A stretch of 59,884 nt of DNA from Candidatus Micrarchaeota archaeon (GTDB lineage: Archaea; Micrarchaeota; Micrarchaeia; Norongarragalinales; Norongarragalinaceae): NCBI GenBank assembly GCA_016212375.1, contig JACRGH010000010.1, positions 1 to 59,884 on the forward strand, written 5' to 3'. The notes beneath the pieces were generated by a model. That model worked only from the letters and a program-made list of their open reading frames with translations. It had not been told where the DNA came from and made no database searches. Position 1 is the first letter of the stretch. Every line of letters begins with the position of its first letter. Below, one piece after another: positions 3,082 to 53,397 of this stretch. The position numbers and the translations under genes were made by a program.

Positions 3082-3168
3082 TTACTTAGGCACCCCGTGC
3101 ATCACGACCCACATGCCGCCGAACGCAACGGCCATGCCGATCCAAAGTGCGGTATCTTTCCAATCCAT
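3082..3168 (-). CDS. 28-aa mini membrane peptide
   Basis: MDWKDTALWIGMAVAFGGMWVVMHGVPK, with GAGGTGG 6 nt upstream of the ATG. Same strand as the cluster. Too short for independent support. Confidence 0.3.
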   Translation of the reverse strand: MDWKDTALWIGMAVAFGGMWVVMHGVPK

Positions 3169-3287
3169 GTTTTTCCACCTCGAAAGCCATTGAACGCTAA
3201 TGGCCCTCGCTCATTTCGCGACCTTCTGCAAAGCCAACGCCAACGGAATACTCTGAAAACCAAGCCCCCGTTCTCGCCAATCGGGAA

Positions 3288-3515
3288 CTAATGGCACGAC
3301 TTTTTATCGTCTTTTCCATCCCCGCCCGTATGCGCCGCCATCATCAGCACGTGCGAGCCGATGCATAACACCAACGCCGCCGGCCACAACAGGGGACTAC
3401 GATAGCCCAACGCGTAAGCCGCGCCGATCACGATCCAGGGGCCGATGCACAACGCCATCATCAGCGCATGATTGTGCGTCAGCGATTCCCATGTTTTTTT
3501 CACGAATTCCAACAT
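3288..3515 (-). CDS. DUF2933-like small membrane protein (C-terminal HxxMMAAH...SCH)
   Basis: ORF-track 3288..3536 trimmed to the ATG at 3515, which has GAGGTG 6 nt upstream. Two TM helices, then CIGSHVLMMAAHTGGDG...SCH. This resembles small His-tailed proteins seen near metal-resistance genes. Confidence 0.6.
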   Translation of the reverse strand: MLEFVKKTWESLTHNHALMMALCIGPWIVIGAAYALGYRSPLLWPAALVLCIGSHVLMMAAHTGGDGKDDKKSCH

Positions 3516-22267: not shown

Positions 22268-22921
22268 ATGAATCCCAAAACCCAAATCAGCCCCTCGTTG
22301 TTGTCGCTTCCGGAAGACCAAGTCAAGGAATGGGTCAAAAAAATCGACGGCAAAGTCGATTCGTTCCACATCGACGTCATGGACAACCAGTTCGTGCCCA
22401 ACTTCACGTTGGAGCGCTTCGCCCCGCCGTTTGTCGCGCAACTGAAGACCAAATCGCAAAAGCACGTGCACTTGATGACGGAAATCCCGTCCAAATATTA
22501 CAATACCTACTTTGAAGCCGGCGCATCAGTCATCATCTTCCACGAGGAAGCCGTGAAAAACCCGACGCTTGAAGTGCGCGCCATCCAAAAATTCGGCATC
22601 CGTGCCGGCGTAAGCATCAAACCCAACACCCCCGCGTCGGTACTGGATGACTACCTAGAGCAAGTGGATTTCGTCTTGGTCATGACGGTGGAGCCCGGAT
22701 TCGGGGGCCAAAGTTTCATGTCGGAACAATTGGACAAAGTAAAGGAATTACGCGCAAAGCGGCCAGGATTGGACATCGGCGTGGACGGCGGCATCAACCC
22801 GGAAACCGCCAAACTCTGCCTTAAAGCAGGTGCCAACATCCTGATTGCCGGAAACGCCATCTTCAACGCGCACGACCCGATGGCGGCGTTGGAAAAGTTC
22901 AACCGACTGAAAAAAGAGTAA
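22268..22921 (+). CDS. rpe: ribulose-phosphate 3-epimerase
   Basis: ISPSLLS...HIDVMDNQFVPN...MTVEPGFGGQSF...VDGGIN. The ATG at 22268 follows CAGGTG; the ORF-track start at 22256 is the GTG of that SD-like element. Confidence 0.92.
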   Translation: MNPKTQISPSLLSLPEDQVKEWVKKIDGKVDSFHIDVMDNQFVPNFTLERFAPPFVAQLKTKSQKHVHLMTEIPSKYYNTYFEAGASVIIFHEEAVKNPTLEVRAIQKFGIRAGVSIKPNTPASVLDDYLEQVDFVLVMTVEPGFGGQSFMSEQLDKVKELRAKRPGLDIGVDGGINPETAKLCLKAGANILIAGNAIFNAHDPMAALEKFNRLKKE

Positions 22922-22923
22922 CT

Positions 22924-23274
22924 TTACAAGTCGAAGAATTTCGCCAACAAACGTTTAATTTTTCCAAAATATTCAGGCGTCACCCGGCCGATACGTTTGC
23001 TGATTAACCTCTTGTCGGAAACCATGGGAAAATCGACCCGAGTTATGCTTGGTTTAAACAAAATTCCGTCGGTTAAATCTTTTTGAACCATTGGCAAACC
23101 GAAATCGTTGATTTGGGCGGACGAAGTAATTTTGACGACGACCACATCCGGTGACTGGTCATTGTAATCTGCTGGGCTTACGACTAAAGCCGGACGGCGT
23201 TTGGACTGGGTGGAATCCGAGTAGGTGAAATCCAGGACAACGATGTCGCCCGGTTCAAGTCTTGAATAATTCAT
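22924..23274 (-). CDS. mazF: PemK/MazF-family toxin
   Basis: LEPGDIVVLDFTYSDSTQSKRRPALVVSP...VVVVKITSS is the typical PemK pattern. The ATG at 23274 overlaps the upstream antitoxin gene by 20 nt. Confidence 0.8.
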   Translation of the reverse strand: MNYSRLEPGDIVVLDFTYSDSTQSKRRPALVVSPADYNDQSPDVVVVKITSSAQINDFGLPMVQKDLTDGILFKPSITRVDFPMVSDKRLISKRIGRVTPEYFGKIKRLLAKFFDL

Positions 23275-23479
23275 CCGCATCACTCCAATCATCCTTCGCA
23301 CGGGCATAAGCGTATTTACGGAATGGGTCGTCTTTTTCCAACCGTTTGGCAAACTGGACAGCCGCCTGGCGCATGATTTCCGTCCATTTGATTTCAGGGT
23401 GTTTTTTCATCGTCTTGTACGTCTCTTCGGGAACTGACAGTGTTACATTGACCAAAGCCATCACCACCTTATTTACCAT
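23255..23479 (-). CDS. putative antitoxin partner of the MazF-like toxin
   Basis: 74-aa ORF immediately upstream of and overlapping the toxin gene. Acidic C-terminus. No family motif recognised. Confidence 0.6.
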   Translation of the reverse strand: MVNKVVMALVNVTLSVPEETYKTMKKHPEIKWTEIMRQAAVQFAKRLEKDDPFRKYAYARAKDDWSDADELFKT

Positions 23480-23585
23480 AATTAAGGCGTTTAAGGTTTT
23501 TATGGTTTCGGGTCATGGCGACTGAACGCCAATACGCGCACCTTTAAGAATTTCAAGACGCCTTTTTATGAGTTGGGTGGAAAAA

Positions 23586-24230
23586 ATGAAGTTCTTTCTT
23601 GATACTGCAATCGTCGATGAAATCCGCAAAGCCAACGAATTCGGCATTTTGGACGGGGTTACGACCAACCCCAGCCTGGTTTACAAGTCCGGCCGGCCGT
23701 TCAAGGACGTCCTGACCGACATCTGCAAAATCGTGGACGGCCCGGTTTCCGCCGAAGTCACAACCCTCACGGCGGCAGAAATGGTCAAACAAGGCCTGGA
23801 GCTTGCTAAAATCCACAAGAACATCGTGGTGAAACTGCCGATGACCGAAGAGGGCGTCAAAGCCTGCAAGCAGTTGTCCGGAAAAGGCGTAAAAATCAAC
23901 GCCACGCTCATTTTTTCGGCATCGCAGGCCTTGGTCATGGCCAAAGCCGGAGCCTCCTACGTCTCACCGTTCATCGGCCGACTTGACGATATTTCCGAAG
24001 ACGGCATGTGCTTGATTGACGACATCCGTGAAATCTTCGACAACTACGACATCAAATCCGAAATCTTGGCCGCCTCCATCCGCCACCCCATGCACATCGT
24101 GGAATGCGCCAAAGCCGGAGCCGACATCGCCACGATGCCTTACACGGTTTTCCAGCAACTGTTCAAACACCCCCTCACGGACGTTGGCCTCAAGAAGTTC
24201 ATGGACGATTGGGATAAGGCGAAGAAGTAG
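23586..24230 (+). CDS. tal: transaldolase / fructose-6-phosphate aldolase (short TalC/Fsa type)
   Basis: MKFFLDTA...GVTTNPSL...VVKLPMT (Schiff-base Lys)...INATLIFS. The ATG at 23586 follows GGTGG. Confidence 0.92.
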
Positions 24231-24242
24231 GCGACATGAAAA

Positions 24243-24566
24243 ATGAAAGAACTCGTAAGAAAGATTGTTGAATTTAAGAAAAAAGGCGGAGAGGTTAATT
24301 TATACGATTCACCAGATTCAACCTCCATTTCATATGCAAGAGAAGAAAACAGAAAATTACCTTGGCTGGAACTTATAGGAGATAAAAGGCACGCCGATTT
24401 AATTGAAGAAATCAACCAACACTTGACCCGCATCGGTATCAAACCTGAGTTTCAAAAAGAAAGTAACCGAATCGACTGCTATTGGAAATTATTTGACGGC
24501 AAGCAAATGGGTTTAGGAGACTTACTGATTGGAAAAAATGAAGCCCAAACCAAATCCGCCGTTTGA
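24243..24566 (+). CDS. hypothetical protein (AT-richer orphan)
   Basis: 107-aa ORF, visibly more AT-rich than its neighbours. No recognisable motif. Confidence 0.45.
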   Translation: MKELVRKIVEFKKKGGEVNLYDSPDSTSISYAREENRKLPWLELIGDKRHADLIEEINQHLTRIGIKPEFQKESNRIDCYWKLFDGKQMGLGDLLIGKNEAQTKSAV

Positions 24567-24631
24567 ATCAAAAAATCCAGATGGTTCAATTAGTCGAAGA
24601 GTTGCATATCCGTTCGACATTTGGTAACAAC

Positions 24632-25063
24632 TTAATCGAACGGATTCACCGCCTTGATCCCCGGAATCTTTCCAAAGTCCTCCACGTTTTCCGTGTAAAT
24701 CGTGTCGATTCCGTTTTCAAACATTGTGGCGGCAAGGAGGGCGTCGAAGAAATGGACCGAATGCCGTTCCGAAAGGTCCAAAGCAAAGACGACCGTTTGG
24801 CCGGTGTAGCCGAAACAGTGGAAGTCCTGCTTGAGATGCTGGACGTATTGGCGGATTTTCCCAAACCCCGCAGGTTCAGAGGATTTATGCCGCAAGACAT
24901 TGGAAAACTCCGCCAGGTTTTGGGCACCGATTACGCCCCGGTCGTTGCGGACCAACCTATCCAGCACGCCCATCGCGGCATCGTGCTTGGGCGAACCATG
25001 ATGGAACGCATGGACCAGGACGTTGGAGTCAATCCATTCCCTGTTTCCGGAGCCGTTCCGCAT
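24632..25063 (-). CDS. vapC: PIN-domain toxin VapC
   Basis: WIDSNVLV (N-terminal Asp), AEF, FFDALLAA and TENVEDF are typical PIN acidic positions. Overlaps the upstream RHH antitoxin gene by 35 nt. Confidence 0.8.
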   Translation of the reverse strand: MRNGSGNREWIDSNVLVHAFHHGSPKHDAAMGVLDRLVRNDRGVIGAQNLAEFSNVLRHKSSEPAGFGKIRQYVQHLKQDFHCFGYTGQTVVFALDLSERHSVHFFDALLAATMFENGIDTIYTENVEDFGKIPGIKAVNPFD

Positions 25064-25319
25064 AGATATCTTCCCTCTTTTCGTACGCTTTGCCACCTTT
25101 GAGGTCAAGCGCCATACCATCCGTCATCAAGGCCATGAGCCGGTCAGCGGCTTTGTTACGGGCCTTTTGTTCCATCTTCCGACGGACCCAATCGTGGACC
25201 GCTTCGGCAATCATCGTGCTGATGGCGCCTTTTTTTCCGCCGAAATCCTCGTTCGCACATTCCCGAATGAGCGCCTCATCGGCCTCGCTTATCGAAATCA
25301 ACAATCGGCCCATTTCCAT
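25029..25319 (-). CDS. vapB: RHH/CopG-like antitoxin VapB
   Basis: 96-aa ORF directly upstream of the PIN gene. N-terminal LLISISEADEALIRECA is a beta-strand/helix RHH-like segment. Confidence 0.65.
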   Translation of the reverse strand: MEMGRLLISISEADEALIRECANEDFGGKKGAISTMIAEAVHDWVRRKMEQKARNKAADRLMALMTDGMALDLKGGKAYEKREDIYAERLRKQGMD

Positions 25320-31353: not shown

Positions 31354-31542
31354 TCACGGTTCAAAAATCTTTTCAATCGGGGATTTGAAAATAACCGACA
31401 ACTTAAAGGCCAACTCCAAGGACGGGTTGTACTTGCCGTTCTCGATGGCCAAAATGGTCTGGCGTGTGACGCTGGCTTTCTGCGCCAGTTCGTCCTGGGT
31501 GATTTTTTCGCGGGCCCGCAGTTCGCGCAAATGGTTTTTCAT
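31354..31542 (-). CDS. XRE-family helix-turn-helix transcriptional regulator
   Basis: 62 aa. ITQDELAQKASVTRQTILAIENGKYNPSLELAFKL is a canonical Cro/C1 HTH. TTTATA lies 27-32 nt upstream of the ATG, which is consistent with a leaderless mRNA. Confidence 0.85.
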   Translation of the reverse strand: MKNHLRELRAREKITQDELAQKASVTRQTILAIENGKYNPSLELAFKLSVIFKSPIEKIFEP

Positions 31543-31567
31543 GATGTAAAGACTACTTTACACCCCT

Positions 31568-31760
31568 ATTTATAGCAATCCTTGAAAATAACCCGAAAAA
31601 ATAATCAAGGATTCTTGCAATCCCTGCAAAGATTGCAAGGTCTTGGAAAAGTCAGTTTCCAAGGCCACACAAACGTGCAAAGTTTGTGCTGCCACACAAG
31701 TCCAACGGGAATTGTGATGTGCTATTTAGCAAACGACGCGAAAGTATTGCGGAACTTTCG
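31568..31760 (+). repeat. hairpin-rich intergenic module, copy R1 (candidate structured RNA or operator array)
   Basis: TTTATAGCAA followed by perfect inverted repeats: 31578-31585/31605-31612, 31614-31622/31631-31639, 31642-31649/31656-31663 and 31668-31674/31682-31688, plus a near-perfect one at 31695-31703/31707-31716. Collinear with the reverse complement of 52381-52552. Confidence 0.5.
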
Positions 31761-31808
31761 CGGCTTGCGATAAACAGTGCATGAACAGTACGAGAAGTCG
31801 GGAATGCG

Positions 31809-31844: not shown

Positions 31845-32027
31845 TTCGGGCATGGTTGATTTTATCGAGGGGATTGAAGCGGGAGCGTCTGAAACCCCAA
31901 CTCCAATGTATAGTTTATTTTACATTTAGTATATATAGCTTTACATTTGCCCATGGAAAAAGCGTAAAGATGCGAAAAAAAGAAGCGAGCGAAAAACCCG
32001 CCAAAAAGAAAGATTGATTGAATCGGA

Positions 32028-32138: not shown

Positions 32139-34025
32139 TCAACGAAGTCGAATACTATCCAAGTTCATCGGCGCACGCGTCTCGCAATGCATCATATGGT
32201 TGATGGTGCGGGCGAACTCTTCAGTTTTCGCCTCATCACCGTGCATGGTGAAGATGCGCTGCGGCCGGGGACGCAAGTTGCGCAAAAAGGCCAACAATTG
32301 CGCCCGGTCGGAGTGACCCGAGTAGCCGTCCACGGTGTGCACCTGCATGTTGACTTTGAGGCTGTCCAGTTTTTTGTGCTCATTGAGGATGGGTACTTCC
32401 CGCTCGCCGCCTTGGATGCGCCGACCCAAAGTCATGGCGCCTTGGTAACCGACGAACAATAGCGCGTTTTTGGGGTCGTGCGCCAACATCTTCAGATACT
32501 CCACCGACGAACCACCCGAAAGCATGCCGGACGGCGCCAAAATCACGCAAGGCTCATCGCTTTCAGCAATGCTTTTACGCTCCTTGGATGTGGCATGCTT
32601 GAAAATGGGGTTGTCAAACGGAGAATTGTTCTGCAAAATCCGGCGCTGGACGTTGCGCTTGAGGTATTCGGGGTAAACCGTGTGGATGGCCGAGGCTTCC
32701 TTGCTCATGCCGTCGATGTAGACCGGAATGTTTTCGCCCGAAATCTTGCTTTCCAAGGACACCATCATTTCCTGCGCGCGGCCCACGGCGAACACCGGAA
32801 TCAATACTTTGCCGCGATTCGCCACGGTTTCGCGGACAATCTGGGCGATGCGCTCTTCGCAATCGGAATAGCGGGGCAACAAGTCGTTCCGGCCGCCATA
32901 GGTCGCTTCAATGAACATGGTCTCCACTCGCGGGAAACGCGTGTCCGCCGGATCCAATAAGGAGGTGCGGCCATACTTGATGTCCGCGGTAAAAACCAAA
33001 TTGTGCAAGCCCTCGCCGATGTGCAAGTGCACCTGCGAACTGCCCAAAATGTGGCCGGCATTGTGGAACGTGAAGCGGATTTCAGGCGTCACGTCGGTAA
33101 CTTCACCGTAATCCCGGACAATCATGTGACTAAGCTGCTTTTTGATGTCCTTTTCGCCGTAGGGGCAGCCCTTTCCTTCGGCATTCATGACCGAGAGGCA
33201 GTCCTGTTGAAGCAAAATGGACAAGTCGCGCGTGGGGGGCGCGCAGTATACCGGGCCTTCGTAGCCGTAGGCGTACAAATAGGGGATGAAACCGCAGTGG
33301 TCCAAGTGAGCATGGGACAAAATGACGGCATCCAGTTGTTCCAATGCCAAATTCATGGCATTGAGGTAGGGGTACGCGCGCGTGGCGTCCGACGTATCGG
33401 TATTCATGCCGCAATCCACCAAAACGTTGCTCTTGGGCGTTTGCAACAGCATGCACGTCCGCCCCACTTCGCGGAAACCGCCCAACATGGTGACTTTGAT
33501 CCAATCACAGCTACCCGCCGGCACGACCATTTTCTTGCCCAACGCGGATAAGAATTTCTTGCGCTGTTCCGACGATGCCAAGACATTGTTGCGGATGGCG
33601 CGCTCGACTTCCGAGGGCGAGGTGGGCGAGCGCAGGACGCGGGGCGACCAGCCGGTATTCAATACGATTTGCTTGAGTACCGAGCCCCCTTTTCCAATGA
33701 CCAAGCCGGGCTTGAGTGCCTCGATGACCACTTCGTGGAAAATCGGGTCGAATTTGATATCTTGGACACCCGCTTCCGGCGGTATGGTGCTTTTGACTTT
33801 TTCCAAGGCACGGGAAGGCGGCATCAGTTCGGATGCGTCCACGCGCAACAATACTTTTTTGCGGACTTTGGACGCGATTTTGGTAATCAGGTGCTCATCG
33901 GAGTAAAAGGCCTGGATGTTCTTGACGTAGATGACGATTTGGGGGCCTTCAAACTCGATTTTGGTCAGGAGGCATTCCGGGGGCAGCACTTGCTGGACGG
34001 ATTCCTGCATTTCTTTCAAATCCAT
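32139..34025 (-). CDS. archaeal cleavage and polyadenylation specificity factor 1 homologue (aCPSF1; KH domains + metallo-beta-lactamase/beta-CASP RNase)
   Basis: 628 aa. N-terminal KH-type GKGGS motif (VIGKGGSVLKQI), HAHLDHCG metallo-beta-lactamase motif, and beta-CASP region ending in GHSD. Confidence 0.92.
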   Translation of the reverse strand: MDLKEMQESVQQVLPPECLLTKIEFEGPQIVIYVKNIQAFYSDEHLITKIASKVRKKVLLRVDASELMPPSRALEKVKSTIPPEAGVQDIKFDPIFHEVVIEALKPGLVIGKGGSVLKQIVLNTGWSPRVLRSPTSPSEVERAIRNNVLASSEQRKKFLSALGKKMVVPAGSCDWIKVTMLGGFREVGRTCMLLQTPKSNVLVDCGMNTDTSDATRAYPYLNAMNLALEQLDAVILSHAHLDHCGFIPYLYAYGYEGPVYCAPPTRDLSILLQQDCLSVMNAEGKGCPYGEKDIKKQLSHMIVRDYGEVTDVTPEIRFTFHNAGHILGSSQVHLHIGEGLHNLVFTADIKYGRTSLLDPADTRFPRVETMFIEATYGGRNDLLPRYSDCEERIAQIVRETVANRGKVLIPVFAVGRAQEMMVSLESKISGENIPVYIDGMSKEASAIHTVYPEYLKRNVQRRILQNNSPFDNPIFKHATSKERKSIAESDEPCVILAPSGMLSGGSSVEYLKMLAHDPKNALLFVGYQGAMTLGRRIQGGEREVPILNEHKKLDSLKVNMQVHTVDGYSGHSDRAQLLAFLRNLRPRPQRIFTMHGDEAKTEEFARTINHMMHCETRAPMNLDSIRLR

Positions 34026-45281: not shown

Positions 45282-45965
45282 TCAACGAACTCTTGTCCCA
45301 ACAAATGCCTTTCCTTCAATCGCCGCCGTCAACTGCAACAGGTCACGGCCGTCCACGAAGTCAACGGCAATGGAGGAGCGGGCCGCCAATTTCGTCGCAA
45401 CCAAATCGAAGACGAAATTGGTGCGGGCTTTGCGTTGGTCGAATTTCACGGCCAAATCAACCAGCTCCGCATGCGTCAACCGGTCATACCGTCGGGCGTC
45501 CTTAAACTCAGACGGGTTCTTGTCGTAAATGCCATCGACGCGGGAGGCGTTCACCACACGGTCCGCGCCGATCGCCTCGGCAATCAAGACGCTGCACGCA
45601 TCGGTGGTGATGCCGGGAAGGAAGCCCCCGGACAGGACCAAATTCTTCTTTTTGAGCGCCGACACGGCGTCCAGCGGGTGCGTGATGATTTTGGAAAACG
45701 CGAGAGTGCCAAATGCTTTTTTGAGCCCTGATGCGTTTTCACGCGTGGCGTTGATGGCGTCAAAATCGGCGTAAAACTCGGCCCCTGCCTTGCCGGCCAT
45801 GCGCGTGCGGGCCGCGTCCGCGTACAAAGCGGCTTTTTGGCCTCCTCCGGTCACCACGGCGAATTTTCGGGCCTTCAAATGGGGCGAAAGAATGGCGGCA
45901 AACGACTTCGCGTAAACGGTCTGGTTCAGAAGCGAGCCGCCTAAGGAGATGACAAGTGGTTTCAT
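45282..45965 (-). CDS. pyrH: UMP kinase (archaeal type, amino-acid kinase fold)
   Basis: MKPLVISLGGSLL, VVTGGG, SGGFLPGITTDACSVLIAEAIGA and VDGIYDKNP motifs. Confidence 0.88.
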   Translation of the reverse strand: MKPLVISLGGSLLNQTVYAKSFAAILSPHLKARKFAVVTGGGQKAALYADAARTRMAGKAGAEFYADFDAINATRENASGLKKAFGTLAFSKIITHPLDAVSALKKKNLVLSGGFLPGITTDACSVLIAEAIGADRVVNASRVDGIYDKNPSEFKDARRYDRLTHAELVDLAVKFDQRKARTNFVFDLVATKLAARSSIAVDFVDGRDLLQLTAAIEGKAFVGTRVR

Positions 45966-51785: not shown

Positions 51786-51980
51786 TTACTTTCTGCGTTT
51801 TTTACCGGCTACCTTTGATTTGGCCCGCGCTTTAGCCAAACGGATGAGTTTGGCGACTTTGGAGTGCTTGGCTTTGCGGCTGGGACCACGGCCACCCTTG
51901 AATGACGATGAAACCGCTGGTTTTGATTTGGGCTTGATTTTTGATTTTGGAGTTTTTCTTGCCGTCCGTCGTACCGCCAT
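51786..51980 (-). CDS. possible 64-aa highly basic Lys/Arg/Ala-rich protein
   Basis: ORF-track 51786..52073 trimmed to the ATG at 51980, preceded by AAGGA. Composition is nucleic-acid-binding-like (KSKIKPKSKP...AKARAKSKVAGKKRRK). No family recognised. Confidence 0.4.
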   Translation of the reverse strand: MAVRRTARKTPKSKIKPKSKPAVSSSFKGGRGPSRKAKHSKVAKLIRLAKARAKSKVAGKKRRK

Positions 51981-52380
51981 ATCCGATTCCTTCCGATTCT
52001 TCAAATTTTTAATTCCTGTCAAGCGATTCTGGACTCGGTGGAAAAGTGCCTCAAACGCTTCGTCTTCCCTCATTGCAAACTTGACCTATCGGGGGTTTTA
52101 GAGGTTATCTTATCCGCGTCGCAAATCACGCATACAAGGCGCAGGTTTCAGTCGGCGAGTTATAGTCCAGACGCCGGACCTAATGGACGAACGCACTTCA
52201 GAGGCGGTTTGGATCGCATCCTTTCCAGGACAACCGAAATATCCCTCGGTTGACGGGATTAGCTCTGATGCCGGAACGGGTTATAAATCTTGTCCAAGCG
52301 CACTTCCGGTTTTCAAAAAAAAGCGCACACAAATGGACTGAATTACAGCATGACCGGCAAATAAGACGACGAAATAGGCC

Positions 52381-52552
52381 GGTCTTGCGGTCTAGCACAG
52401 CACAAATTTCCACTGAAATTTGAGTGGCATCACAAGTTCCCCGGAACTTGTGTGGCCTTGCGGAGTTTTCTCCGCAAGACCTTGCAAATCGCGGTGATTT
52501 GCAAGAAACCAAGACAGCTGACGGGAAATTTTCTTGGTTTGCTATAAACCAA
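52381..52552 (-). repeat. hairpin-rich intergenic module, copy R2 (reverse orientation relative to R1)
   Basis: The reverse complement reads TTTATAGCAA, then perfect inverted repeats at 52506-52514/52532-52540, 52481-52490/52496-52505, 52457-52465/52470-52478 and 52431-52440/52443-52452. The order is the same as in R1, with the blocks TTCTTGCAA, GCAAGGTCTTG and GGCCACACAA shared. Confidence 0.5.
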
Positions 52553-52644
52553 ACGGCCATTCGATTGCAACAGTATGAAAAAGGGCTGACGCTCGCTTTT
52601 TAAAAAATAAAAAAGGAACCGGTTGCCACAACGGCAGGCCGGTT

Positions 52645-53397
52645 TTACTTCTTCTTTTCGTCCTTGGCCGGAGCGGAACCCTTCGCCGCGGGCTTTCCGC
52701 CGGCTTTGGCATCCGTTGCCGAAGCAGCGGGGGCCTTGCCATCTGCGCCAACCGCGGCCTGAGCGGCACCTTCGGCGCCAGCAGCCGGAACGACTTCCTC
52801 GACTTTGGCCACTTCCACTTCCTTTTTCTTGAAAGAGATGGCGGCTTTGCCTTTCTTAGCCAAGTTCCAAGGCAACAGGGTGATGTCTTGCAAGACGACC
52901 GTATAATGTCCGGACAGTTTCAGCTGTCCGCGGTTGAACGCTTTTTTGGCAACAGTCAAAGCCGATTTATCAAAACGGGCACGGAAAACCGAGTCGCCTG
53001 CCGGGATGCGGGCCATACGTCCCTTGGGCTTGCCAAAGGAAAGTTTCATACCCTTGGAGATACGGTCAGCGCCTGCCACACCGAGCGCGGTGTGTTCACG
53101 GATGACCAAGTGCGGGAATTTGAGTACTTGCAAGAAGTAGTTGGATTCCAAATTCTTTTCCAAGTGTTTGTTGATGGCCTGGCGGGCGGCTTCCAAGGCG
53201 TTGTCACGCAGTTGGATAGGCGATTCCAGGACCAAGTCGCCTTGCATCTCATAGTAGCGGTCGGAACCCATGTTGAACTGGCGGACCTTGGAATTGGGCG
53301 CGCCTTTTACAAAGCTTTTACGGGGCTTTTTGCGCGAAATGCGGGACCACGGCTGGGCCTTGACTTCACGCATGGTTCTAGCAGGACGAATACCCAT
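52645..53397 (-). CDS. rpl10e: 50S ribosomal protein uL16 (L10e) with long Ala/Lys/Glu-rich C-terminal extension
   Basis: Trimmed to the ATG at 53397. MGIRPARTMREVKAQPWSRISRKKPRKSFVKGAPNSKVRQFNMG is the typical L10e N-terminus. The last 75 or so residues are low-complexity A/K/E/G. Confidence 0.9.
   Translation of the reverse strand: MGIRPARTMREVKAQPWSRISRKKPRKSFVKGAPNSKVRQFNMGSDRYYEMQGDLVLESPIQLRDNALEAARQAINKHLEKNLESNYFLQVLKFPHLVIREHTALGVAGADRISKGMKLSFGKPKGRMARIPAGDSVFRARFDKSALTVAKKAFNRGQLKLSGHYTVVLQDITLLPWNLAKKGKAAISFKKKEVEVAKVEEVVPAAGAEGAAQAAVGADGKAPAASATDAKAGGKPAAKGSAPAKDEKKK

What the first reader, a model, noticed from the sequence alone, without database searches (positions are those of the whole stretch)
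31543..31760. Hairpin-rich module R1 next to the XRE gene has a diverged second copy 21 kb away with compensatory changes in the stems
Downstream of TTTATAGCAA (31569-31578), the plus strand carries a series of perfect inverted repeats:
- ATCCTTGA/TCAAGGAT
- CTTGCAATC/GATTGCAAG
- CTTGGAAA/TTTCCAAG
- CACAAAC/GTTTGTG
- a near-perfect CACAAGTCC/GGAATTGTG

The reverse complement of 52381-52552 has the same order of elements and shares the blocks TTTATAGCAA, TTCTTGCAA, GCAAGGTCTTG, GGCCACACAA and TTGTGATG. However, the stem sequences differ on both arms so that pairing is kept:
- AAACCAAGA/TCTTGGTTT
- CTTGCAAATC/GATTTGCAAG
- CTTGCGGAG/CTCCGCAAG
- CACAAGTTCC/GGAACTTGTG

Pairing preserved across diverged copies argues for selection on structure. 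That would fit a structured RNA of 150-250 nt. Alternatively, it could be an array of palindromic operators that co-evolved with their regulator. The TATA element is positioned to drive the leaderless XRE mRNA leftward, so the module could be an upstream control region, a divergent ncRNA, or the end of a mobile module. I cannot match it to a known RNA family by eye.
Basis: seen in the sequence. Interest (0 to 1): 0.65.

Follow-up and report, generated by a model that had tools for sequence, protein, structure and literature searches.

The report
Modular hairpin repeat elements in Micrarchaeota
The two hairpin-rich stretches are real, diverged copies of a previously undescribed family of modular palindromic repeat elements that come and go between genes in a group of tiny groundwater archaea. 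They look more like small mobile DNA than like a single regulatory RNA gene or a set of binding sites for the neighbouring XRE regulator.

Summary
R1 (31569-31775, +) and R2 (52343-52549, -) align, and each folds into five tandem hairpins closed by an outer stem (z about -6). Their stems differ by changes on both sides.

The host is an archaeon of the Micrarchaeia (DPANN). A metagenome scan and two covariance models recovered about a dozen more array-bearing copies and many minimal copies. In 13 copies, 94% of cells pair and 33 of 53 pairs show double changes (0 of 500 shuffles reach this). Rfam has no match.

TTTATAGCAA is the 5' strand of the closing stem and overlaps the TATA box of the XRE gene.

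Each element has three parts: a 48-nt unit hairpin (TATAGCAA, stem, 19-nt loop AAGTAACCCGACRAAATAG), an array of short hairpins, and a second unit in inverted orientation. Array-less doublets also exist.

Several results point to repeat DNA:
- R1 and R2 are missing from the same sites in relatives.
- Near-identical strains differ by a 141-nt unit insertion.
- Both strands fold equally well.
- Neighbouring genes are unrelated.

Best reading: a REPIN/BOX/MITE-like repeat family (about 0.6). The main rival is a family of small RNA genes (about 0.2). No RNA data exist to decide.

The parts
31569..31775 (+). R1, whole composite element: unit A, a 4-hairpin array, the closing strand, and unit B
   Evidence: (CM R1, 150.7 bits)
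31571..31618 (+). R1 unit A. It consists of TATAGCAA, hairpin H1 (9-bp stem, 31577-31613) and TT. The 19-nt loop AAAATAACCCGAAAAAATA matches the family loop consensus AAGTAACCCGACRAAATAG.
   Evidence: Unit CM R2, 57.2 bits; alignment A5; perfect hairpin
31572..31577 (+). 5' strand of closing stem P1 (ATAGCA). It pairs with 31720-31725 (TGCTAT).
   Evidence: MFE fold. P1 covaries across copies: UGGCA/UGCCA in L011 and GCGACGC/GCGUCGC in L022. All 6 pairs show double changes.
31614..31719 (+). R1 hairpin array: H2 31614-39, H3 31640-65, H4 31668-88, H5 31695-716, plus linkers. It behaves as an insert in unit A.
   Evidence: Array-less versions with the same H1 stem occur on other contigs of the same groundwater study and in L025 10615-10715.
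31720..31725 (+). 3' strand of closing stem P1 (TGCTAT)
31726..31772 (-). R1 unit B: TAGCAA, hairpin CGCGAAAGT/ACTTTCGCG (31737-62), TTGCGATAA. It is read by the unit model in inverted orientation.
   Evidence: Unit CM, 23.9 bits. Nearly identical in L023 and L025.
52343..52549 (-). R2, whole composite element: unit A, a 4-hairpin array, the closing strand, and unit B
   Evidence: (157.4 bits)
52501..52546 (-). R2 unit A: TATAGCAA, H1 (52506-52540) and TT. P1 5' strand 52540-44 pairs with 52393-97.
   Evidence: Unit CM, 45.9 bits. A near-identical lone unit lies at a different site in relative JACQQD01 (L029 18119-64).
52400..52505 (-). R2 hairpin array: H2 52481-505, H3 52457-78 (extended 52455-80), H4 52431-52, H5 52403-22
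52344..52391 (+). R2 unit B. The stem is GACCGGC/GCCGGTC (52352-84). The loop reads AAATAAGACGACGAAATAG on the + strand, so it is inverted relative to unit A.
   Evidence: Unit CM, 49.3 bits. The same unit occurs in L027 17056-17103.
52315..52322 (-). T8 tract 20 nt after R2. This is a possible archaeal oligo-T terminator if R2 is transcribed on the - strand.
   Evidence: Similar T6-T7 tracts follow the copies in L015 and L023.
31567..31574 (-). TATA box of the leaderless XRE gene (TATAAATA on the - strand). It overlaps the end of R1 by 3-4 nt.
   Evidence: About 28 nt from the ATG at 31542. L002 has TTAAATAG at the same distance.
31545..31562 (.). TGTAAAG-N4-CTTTACA inverted repeat between the XRE TATA box and the ATG. 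This is the likely true XRE operator and is not part of the repeat element.
   Evidence: The equivalent TGTAAA...TTTACA is present in L002.

Best explanation
R1 and R2 are two members of an undescribed family of modular palindromic repeat elements. The family is carried in intergenic DNA by a clade of groundwater Micrarchaeia (DPANN archaea).

The building block is a 48-nt 'unit'. It consists of TATAGCAA, a 7-9 bp variable stem, a 19-nt loop (consensus AAGTAACCCGACRAAATAG), the return stem, and TT(GCTATA).

Units occur singly, as abutting inverted doublets, or in clusters. In R1, R2 and about ten other copies, an array of 2-6 short hairpins is inserted in the 3' closing strand of one unit. These hairpins have conserved 'feet' (CTTGCAA/TTGCAAG, CTTG/CAAG, CACACAA/TTGTG) and 1-3 nt linkers. 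As a result, TATAGCA pairs with TGCTAT around a multi-hairpin junction.

Shown here:
- the family and its architecture
- strong conservation of pairing through double changes
- no strand preference
- no conserved neighbouring gene
- absence from syntenic sites in relatives
- a unit insertion between near-identical strains

Inferred:
- The elements spread and turn over as DNA. This would happen either through a trans-acting enzyme that recognises folded single-stranded hairpins, or through recombination between units.
- Palindromy is maintained because the hairpin itself is what is recognised, or because one arm is repaired using the other as template.
- When read through by RNA polymerase, the elements would give very stable multi-hairpin RNA (about -70 kcal/mol). 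Such RNA could protect 3' ends or insulate neighbouring transcription units, here the XRE promoter and the RNA gene candidate after R2.
For: - Family: a metagenome pattern scan found 17 loci, about 10 distinct copies. CM R1 scores them at 59-160 bits and finds weaker extra copies.
- Covariation: 94.3% of cells pair against 78% in shuffles. 33 of 53 pairs have double changes, with 0 of 500 shuffles reaching this. Slid controls pair at 31-46%.
- Unit: 19 units align to one consensus. The unit CM finds 40 hits in 272 kb of Micrarchaeota loci, and none in 620 kb of viral contigs, 70 of the 71 picked for carrying the loop 15-mer.
- Inverted doublets, with or without an array: R1, R2, L023, L015, L011, L026, L025 10618-10712 and L027 17056-17149.
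- Array-less R1-type doublets occur in the same aquifer study.
- Non-synteny: R1 is absent between aCPSF1 and XRE in L002, whose aCPSF1 is 87% identical. R2 is absent from the L10e-DM13 gap in L027/28, L029 and L030/31. An R2-like unit lies elsewhere in L029.
- Strain polymorphism: L016 has a 141-nt, two-unit insertion relative to the otherwise near-identical L013. One inserted unit is near-identical by eye to another unit 1.1 kb away on the same contig.
- Several separate sites occur on single contigs, L025 and L013/L016.
- No strand bias: 72 against 66 G.U pairs, and summed energy of -1368 against -1353 kcal/mol over 19 elements. In the alignment, G.U is 14 variable cells and A.C is 15.
- A 44-nt direct repeat of a tRNA 3' end brackets the L025 array.
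- Neighbouring genes are unrelated housekeeping genes.
Against: - No transposase, integrase or HUH gene was seen in the window or in about 100 kb of annotated relatives. The means of spread is therefore unknown.
- No target-site duplication was found at R1, R2 or the L016 insertion.
- Copies within one genome are quite diverged: R1 and R2 share 74% identity.
- Density is modest, about one site per 20-60 kb, which is unlike a recently burst MITE.
- Oligo-T tracts directly follow R2, L015 and L023. The stem feet, linkers and the 19-nt loop are strongly conserved. Both would also fit a transcribed functional RNA.
- The array-bearing copies were found with a pattern that fixes GGTCTTG, CAAGGCCACACAA and TTGTG. 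Invariance of those blocks is therefore imposed by the search.
- The pair counts were made on a model-fitted alignment.
Confidence: 0.6

Rival explanations
1. The elements are a family of small structured RNA genes, paralogous within genomes. A closing stem encloses a variable number of hairpins whose conserved feet and linkers bind a protein, so the RNA acts as a multivalent scaffold or sponge. The conserved 19-nt loop would be a second recognition site.
For: - Covariation is strong in all six helices, and folds are very stable.
- Junction nucleotides and the loop are conserved.
- Oligo-T tracts follow R2, L015 and L023.
- The number of repeated hairpins varies, as in known sponge RNAs.
- There is no coding potential: loop lengths differ by non-multiples of three.
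Against: - The two strands fold equally well, and G.U is about as frequent as A.C.
- The same unit occurs in both orientations within one element.
- No conserved promoter was found. The TATA-like start is absent in L013, L023 and L026, which still keep the pairing.
- The elements are not syntenic in relatives.
- Strains differ by a unit insertion.
- Array-less and array-only versions exist.
- No RNA run holds the sequence.
Confidence: 0.22
2. The hairpins are an array of palindromic operators bound by the adjacent XRE regulator, having co-evolved with it.
For: R1 abuts the XRE promoter. XRE proteins bind inverted repeats (general knowledge of the family, PF01381).
Against: - R2 and ten other copies have no XRE neighbour.
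- Half-site sequences differ between copies, and arm spacing varies from 4 to 19 nt.
- The relative L002 keeps the XRE gene and its promoter but lacks R1.
- The boxes conserved with L002 are TGTAAA/TTTACA. They lie at 31545-62 and 31919-45, outside the hairpins.
Confidence: 0.03
3. The elements are recombination sites, or remnants of small integrative or IS200/IS605-type elements. Folded single-stranded DNA hairpins would be the substrate of a tyrosine or HUH recombinase, as with attC sites or PATEs. On this reading they are not free-standing repeats.
For: - Structure is conserved more than sequence, on both strands.
- Direct repeats of tRNA 3' ends bracket the L025 array and follow tRNA-Val in L010. 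The L022 copy follows tRNA-Ile.
Against: - R1 and R2 are not next to tRNA genes, and the window has none.
- No recombinase gene was seen.
- The units of a doublet are inverted, whereas IS200/IS605 ends are read on one strand (own knowledge).
Confidence: 0.1

Closest known systems
Bacterial REP / REPIN / BIME elements (mobilised by RAYT transposases)
   Same: - Short palindromic units carry a conserved tag next to the stem.
- Units occur as inverted doublets separated by a spacer (the REPIN form) and as more complex clusters.
- They are intergenic and differ between strains.
- The hairpin is kept by compensating changes.
[quoted passage not shown]
   Different: - The host is an archaeon.
- The tag is (T)ATAGCAA, not GTAG or CGTC.
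- The unit has a large conserved 19-nt loop.
- An array of further hairpins can sit inside a unit.
- Copy density appears lower.
- No RAYT was seen.
BOX elements of Streptococcus pneumoniae (boxA-boxB(n)-boxC) and other modular repeats such as ERIC and Correia elements (own knowledge)
   Same: - The build is modular, with terminal modules that can pair and a variable number of internal modules.
- They are intergenic.
- They fold into stable structures when transcribed.
   Different: - There is no sequence similarity.
- Here the internal modules are individual perfect hairpins with covarying stems.
- The host is an archaeon.
Prokaryotic MITEs, including archaeal ones (PMC10969869)
   Same: Non-autonomous, 100-300 bp, inverted ends, present or absent between close relatives.
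   Different: No target-site duplication or parent insertion sequence was found. Copies are diverged rather than near-identical.
Multi-hairpin protein-sponge sRNAs (CsrB/RsmZ type; own knowledge)
   Same: Variable numbers of repeated hairpins and several paralogues per genome.
   Different: - In those RNAs the conserved motif is in the loops and on one strand only.
- Here the conserved parts are the stem feet, and the two strands are equivalent.
- Transcription has not been shown.
Integron attC sites / IS200-IS605 ends (own knowledge)
   Same: DNA hairpins in which structure is conserved more than sequence, because a recombinase reads the folded single strand.
   Different: No cassette or transposase context was found, and these elements hold many tandem hairpins.

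Membership tests
Any Rfam 15 RNA family | Score at or above the family's gathering threshold | tested here: not met
   There were 0 hits in the whole window. The best E-value-mode hits on R1 and R2 are chance-level, at 20.5 bits or less against thresholds of 35-95.
REP/REPIN | Short palindromic unit able to form a hairpin | tested here: met
   The 48-nt unit has a 7-9 bp stem, and 19 units align.
REP/REPIN | GTAG or CGTC tetranucleotide at one end (PMC3733652) | tested here: not met
   The tag is TATAGCAA in most units. Only L026 has GTAG, as GGTAGTAA.
REP/REPIN | [quoted passage not shown] | tested here: met
   R1, R2, L023, L015, L011, L026, L025 and L027 all show units on opposite strands.
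REP/REPIN | Associated RAYT (IS200/IS605-like tyrosine transposase) in the genome | not testable with these tools
   None was found among genes of the window and about 100 kb of annotated relatives. Whole genomes could not be scanned.
REP/REPIN | High copy number per genome | tested here: inconclusive
   There are 2 sites in the 60-kb window, 0 in 56 kb of aCPSF1 loci, and 3 sites in about 76 kb of non-duplicate L10e loci. Up to 3 sites occur on a 13-kb stretch.
MITE | Terminal inverted repeats | tested here: met
   Inverted units bound the elements.
MITE | Target-site duplication | tested here: not met
   None was found at R1 or R2, nor at the L016 insertion. Only L025 and L010 show tRNA-end direct repeats.
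MITE | Presence/absence polymorphism between close relatives | tested here: met
Structured sRNA gene | Covariation supporting a conserved secondary structure | tested here: met
   33 of 53 pairs have double changes, with 0 of 500 shuffles reaching this.
Structured sRNA gene | Strand asymmetry (G.U tolerated on the RNA strand only) | tested here: not met
Structured sRNA gene | Own promoter and terminator; detectable transcript | tested here: inconclusive
   Oligo-T follows 3 copies, but no conserved TATA box lies upstream. No RNA run holds the sequence.
XRE operator array | Conserved half-site sequence and association with the regulator gene | tested here: not met
CRISPR array | Identical direct repeats separated by unique, non-palindromic spacers | tested here: not met
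   The variable parts are themselves palindromic stems.

The most novel reading that the evidence does not exclude
These would be the first REPIN-like elements described in Archaea, spread by an as yet unidentified system that recognises hairpins. Their inserted hairpin arrays would be expressed as a new class of modular multi-hairpin RNA specific to DPANN archaea, for example a multivalent protein scaffold, rather than being inert DNA.
Probability: 0.2. Interest if true: 0.75.

Novelty: new variant of a known kind. Interest (0 to 1): 0.5.

Why it matters
Micrarchaeota are uncultivated archaea with reduced genomes, and almost nothing is known about their non-coding DNA.

A lineage-specific repeat family with conserved structure has several uses:
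- It gives a marker for strain-level genome dynamics.
- It offers a handle for finding the enzyme that moves it. REP/REPIN systems have so far been described mainly in bacteria.
- It provides ready-made covariance models that stop these stretches being mis-called as genes. The ORF lists show a spurious 63-aa ORF over R1 and a 120-aa ORF over R2.

If the arrays are transcribed, they would be a new archaeal RNA architecture. One copy sits against the promoter of an XRE regulator and the other directly upstream of a strongly conserved RNA gene candidate, so local effects on expression can be tested.

Tried and rejected
- **Known RNA families and tRNAs:** Rfam at gathering threshold on the whole window, Rfam in E-value mode on R1, R2 and the conserved stretch after R2, and a tRNA scan all found nothing.
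- **TTTATAGCAA as the promoter of an R RNA:** rejected. It pairs with TGCTAT, it covaries, and L013, L023 and L026 lack a TATA there.
- **Kissing interaction between the H1 loop and the 3' hairpin loop:** complementary only in L026 and partly in L013, not in R2, L011 or L015. The real explanation is that the 3' hairpin is the same unit inverted.
- **Resemblances recalled from memory:** C/D-box or K-turn, H/ACA, bulge-helix-bulge, origin-recognition boxes (TTTCAGTGGAAAT in R2-H5), SRP or RNase P RNA, CRISPR, and TnpB guide RNA. None has its defining motifs in both copies.
- **Protein coding:** ORFs 31582-31773 and 52198-52560 have no Pfam hit (tested for the second) and no conserved frame across copies.
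- **Viral origin:** two scans of viral contigs gave only chance matches and no CM hit.
- **Transcript evidence:** three run searches found only DNA metagenomes.
- **Literature:** searches for Micrarchaeota/DPANN non-coding RNA or repeats found nothing specific.
- **Flanking direct repeats at R1 and R2:** only weak matches.
- **Hairpin count:** a first script had a logic error and was redone.

Full report
**1. The observation.**

On the + strand, after TTTATAGCAA (31569-78), R1 carries five hairpins: four perfect inverted repeats and one near-perfect one. The reverse complement of 52403-52548 carries the same series in the same order.

The two stretches align over about 190 nt at 74% column identity. 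The inner stems differ on both arms.

- Each stretch folds about 25 kcal/mol better than dinucleotide shuffles (z -6.6 and -6.0).
- Nine of the 23 perfect hairpins of at least 8 bp in the whole window lie in these two stretches. Shuffles give about 14 per 60 kb.
- No third copy exists in the window.

**2. The organism.**

The window encodes aCPSF1/FttA (32139-34025, -) and ribosomal protein L10e, so the organism is an archaeon. The closest genomes are groundwater MAGs labelled Candidatus Micrarchaeota or Norongarragalinales. Their aCPSF1 is 87% identical in JACQQD01 and 62-70% in the others. The rest of the window is ordinary chromosomal housekeeping, with no transposase or integrase.

**3. 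A family, not a pair.**

A metagenome scan for GGTCTTG..CAAGGCCACACAA..TTGTG returned 17 loci, about ten distinct new copies. They show that the 'TATA element' is one strand of a closing stem. (T)ATAGCA pairs with TGCTA(T) after the last hairpin, and the pair covaries: UGGCA/UGCCA in L011, UAGUA/UACU in L026 and GCGACGC/GCGUCGC in L022.

I built a covariance model from seven copies (A3). It scores all copies at 59-160 bits and finds weaker ones.

On the model-fitted alignment of 13 copies:
- 94.3% of cells pair, against 78% in shuffles and 31-46% when partners are slid.
- 33 of 53 pairs carry changes on both sides.
- All five measures exceed all 500 shuffles.

Two caveats apply. The blocks used in the scan are invariant by construction, and a fitted alignment leans towards its structure. 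Even so, the inner stems, H1 and P1 were not part of the pattern, and they carry most of the double changes. Rfam has nothing like it.

**4. Anatomy.**

The loop of hairpin 1, read on the opposite strand, is the same motif as the loop of the hairpin that follows R2, L011, L013, L015 and L026. In R1 the opposite-strand reading is TTATTTTTTCGGGTTAT, and in L023 it is CTATTTTGTCGGGTTTCTT.

Nineteen such hairpins align to one 48-nt unit: TATAGCAA, stem, AAGTAACCCGACRAAATAG, stem, TT. A second model built from them finds 40 hits in 272 kb of Micrarchaeota loci. It finds none in 620 kb of viral contigs, 70 of the 71 chosen because they hold the loop 15-mer.

In the window the unit occurs exactly four times: 31571-618 (+), 31726-772 (-), 52501-546 (-) and 52344-391 (+). 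Each of R1 and R2 is therefore unit, then array, then inverted unit. L023, L015, L011 and L026 are built the same way.

Other forms also occur:
- L025 10618-712 and L027 17056-149 are two abutting inverted units with no array.
- L029 has a lone unit almost identical to R2's.
- L013/L016 and L032 hold clusters of units.
- Contigs from the same aquifer study carry R1's own H1 stem followed directly by TTGCTATCTAGCAAACGG. The 106-nt array 31614-31719 is therefore an insert in the 3' closing strand of a unit.
- Arrays also occur without units, closed by other stems (L022, L010, L012, L018, L025).
- The number of CACACAA..TTGTG hairpins ranges from one (L026) to three (L012).

**5. Behaviour.**

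R1 is missing from the syntenic aCPSF1-XRE-DUF2178 site of L002. That site keeps the XRE promoter and a conserved stretch further on.

R2 is missing from the syntenic L10e-DM13 gap in relatives whose L10e is 71-78% identical. In two of them the gap is only 70-85 nt.

L016 and L013 are near-identical across their flanks, yet L016 has 141 extra nucleotides holding two units. One of these units is near-identical by eye to another unit 1.1 kb away on the same contig.

The L025 array is bracketed by a 44-nt direct repeat of a tRNA 3' end. Genes beside ten copies are unrelated: KaiC, TrmB, HAD, an M23 peptidase, DUF63 and others.

**6. RNA or DNA?**

No public RNA run holds these sequences; only groundwater DNA metagenomes do. 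Indirect tests do not favour one RNA strand.
- Over 19 elements, the two strands fold to a summed -1368 against -1353 kcal/mol, with 72 against 66 G.U pairs.
- In the alignment, variable G.U cells (14) equal A.C cells (15).
- The same unit sits in both orientations within one element.
- No TATA box is conserved upstream of the closing stem.

In favour of transcription, oligo-T tracts follow R2 (52315-22), L015 and L023.

**7. Explanation.**

The best-supported reading (about 0.6) is a lineage-specific family of modular palindromic repeats that spread and turn over as DNA. Bacterial REPINs/BIMEs are inverted doublets of tagged palindromes (PMC3337134, PMC3733652). BOX elements have terminal modules around a variable number of internal modules. 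Both are analogous in architecture and behaviour, but not homologous.

Pairing would be kept for one of two reasons. Either the folded hairpin is what is recognised, or quasi-palindromes are corrected using the other arm as template. Either would explain near-perfect Watson-Crick stems on both strands.

The mobilising activity is unknown. I found no target duplication at R1 or R2 and no transposase.

The rivals are:
- A family of small RNA genes (0.22). It is not excluded, and it could coexist with mobility.
- Recombinase sites, or remnants of integrative elements (0.1).
- XRE operators (0.03).

The XRE reading fails for three reasons. The half-sites are not conserved. The other copies lack an XRE neighbour. 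The boxes conserved with L002 are TGTAAA/TTTACA, at 31545-62 and 31919-45, outside the hairpins.

It overlaps the end of R1 by 3-4 nt.

**8. Novelty and score.**

I found no description of this family in Rfam or in the literature searches. It is a new variant of a known kind, palindromic intergenic repeats, in a phylum where none is documented. Interest is moderate (0.5). It would rise if the arrays prove to be expressed RNAs, or if a new mobilising enzyme is found.

Noticed in passing
window 52040-52260 (- strand): A non-coding stretch of about 220 nt lies just after R2, its T8 tract and a TTTATAA box (52285-91). By eye it is far better conserved against L027 11080-11300 than the rest of the gap, although L10e in that relative is only 78% identical. 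This is a strong candidate for a conserved structured RNA gene. Rfam gives no match, even in E-value mode.
   Followed up: partly
window 51786-51980 (- strand): A small, very basic ORF (K/R-rich, about 64 aa from the ATG near 51980) follows the conserved non-coding stretch. It is conserved in L027 11333-11492.
   Followed up: no
window 31865-31955, with L002 5080-5160: A stretch conserved with the relative L002 holds two TGTAAA boxes (31919-24 and 31940-45, -) around a TATATATA box. It is probably a second XRE-controlled promoter pointing leftward. A perfect 10-bp hairpin with a T-run follows on the - strand (31819-47).
   Followed up: partly
L025 4047-4090 and 4377-4420; L010 3124-3143 and 3185-3204: Direct repeats of tRNA 3' ends (44 nt and 20 nt) bracket or precede array-only copies. 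This resembles the att duplication left by an integrative element, yet the enclosed DNA is only about 300 nt or about 40 nt.
   Followed up: partly
L010 ~3150-3175, L012 ~385-410, L025 (two places): A further small conserved hairpin module, CCGGAACC..GGGGGAAAGCG(T)TCCCCC, precedes the array-only copies.
   Followed up: no
L013 9700-10000; L010 ~3400-3500; L027 10850-10960: Extreme poly-A/poly-T tracts with a conserved core (GGAAACAAAAAAAAAGG..) lie beside repeat clusters in three loci. In L027 this stretch occupies the place that R2 has in the window. The nature is unknown: a small basic ORF with slippery A-runs, or an unwinding region.
   Followed up: no
window 31535-31542 and 52575-52582: TTTTTCAT lies exactly 26 nt upstream of TTTATAGCAA in both R1 and R2. 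In R1 it contains the XRE start codon. This may be coincidence or part of the element's border; it remains unexplained.
   Followed up: no
window 52645-53395 (- strand): L10e carries a C-terminal extension of about 70 aa rich in K, A and P. Homologues in other Micrarchaeota have similar lengths (220-250 aa), well above my recollection of typical archaeal L10e lengths.
   Followed up: no
window 45386-45421: This is the longest perfect hairpin in the window (11-bp stem). Its arms contain GACGAAAT, which is reminiscent of the unit loop motif. It lies inside a 227-aa ORF.
   Followed up: no
window ~22900-25100 (L001 16224-18619): Two toxin-antitoxin-like pairs (a small ORF with a PIN-domain gene, and RHH with PemK) are embedded among pentose-phosphate genes: transketolase, transaldolase, RPE and RpiB. 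The window also holds G6PD.
   Followed up: no
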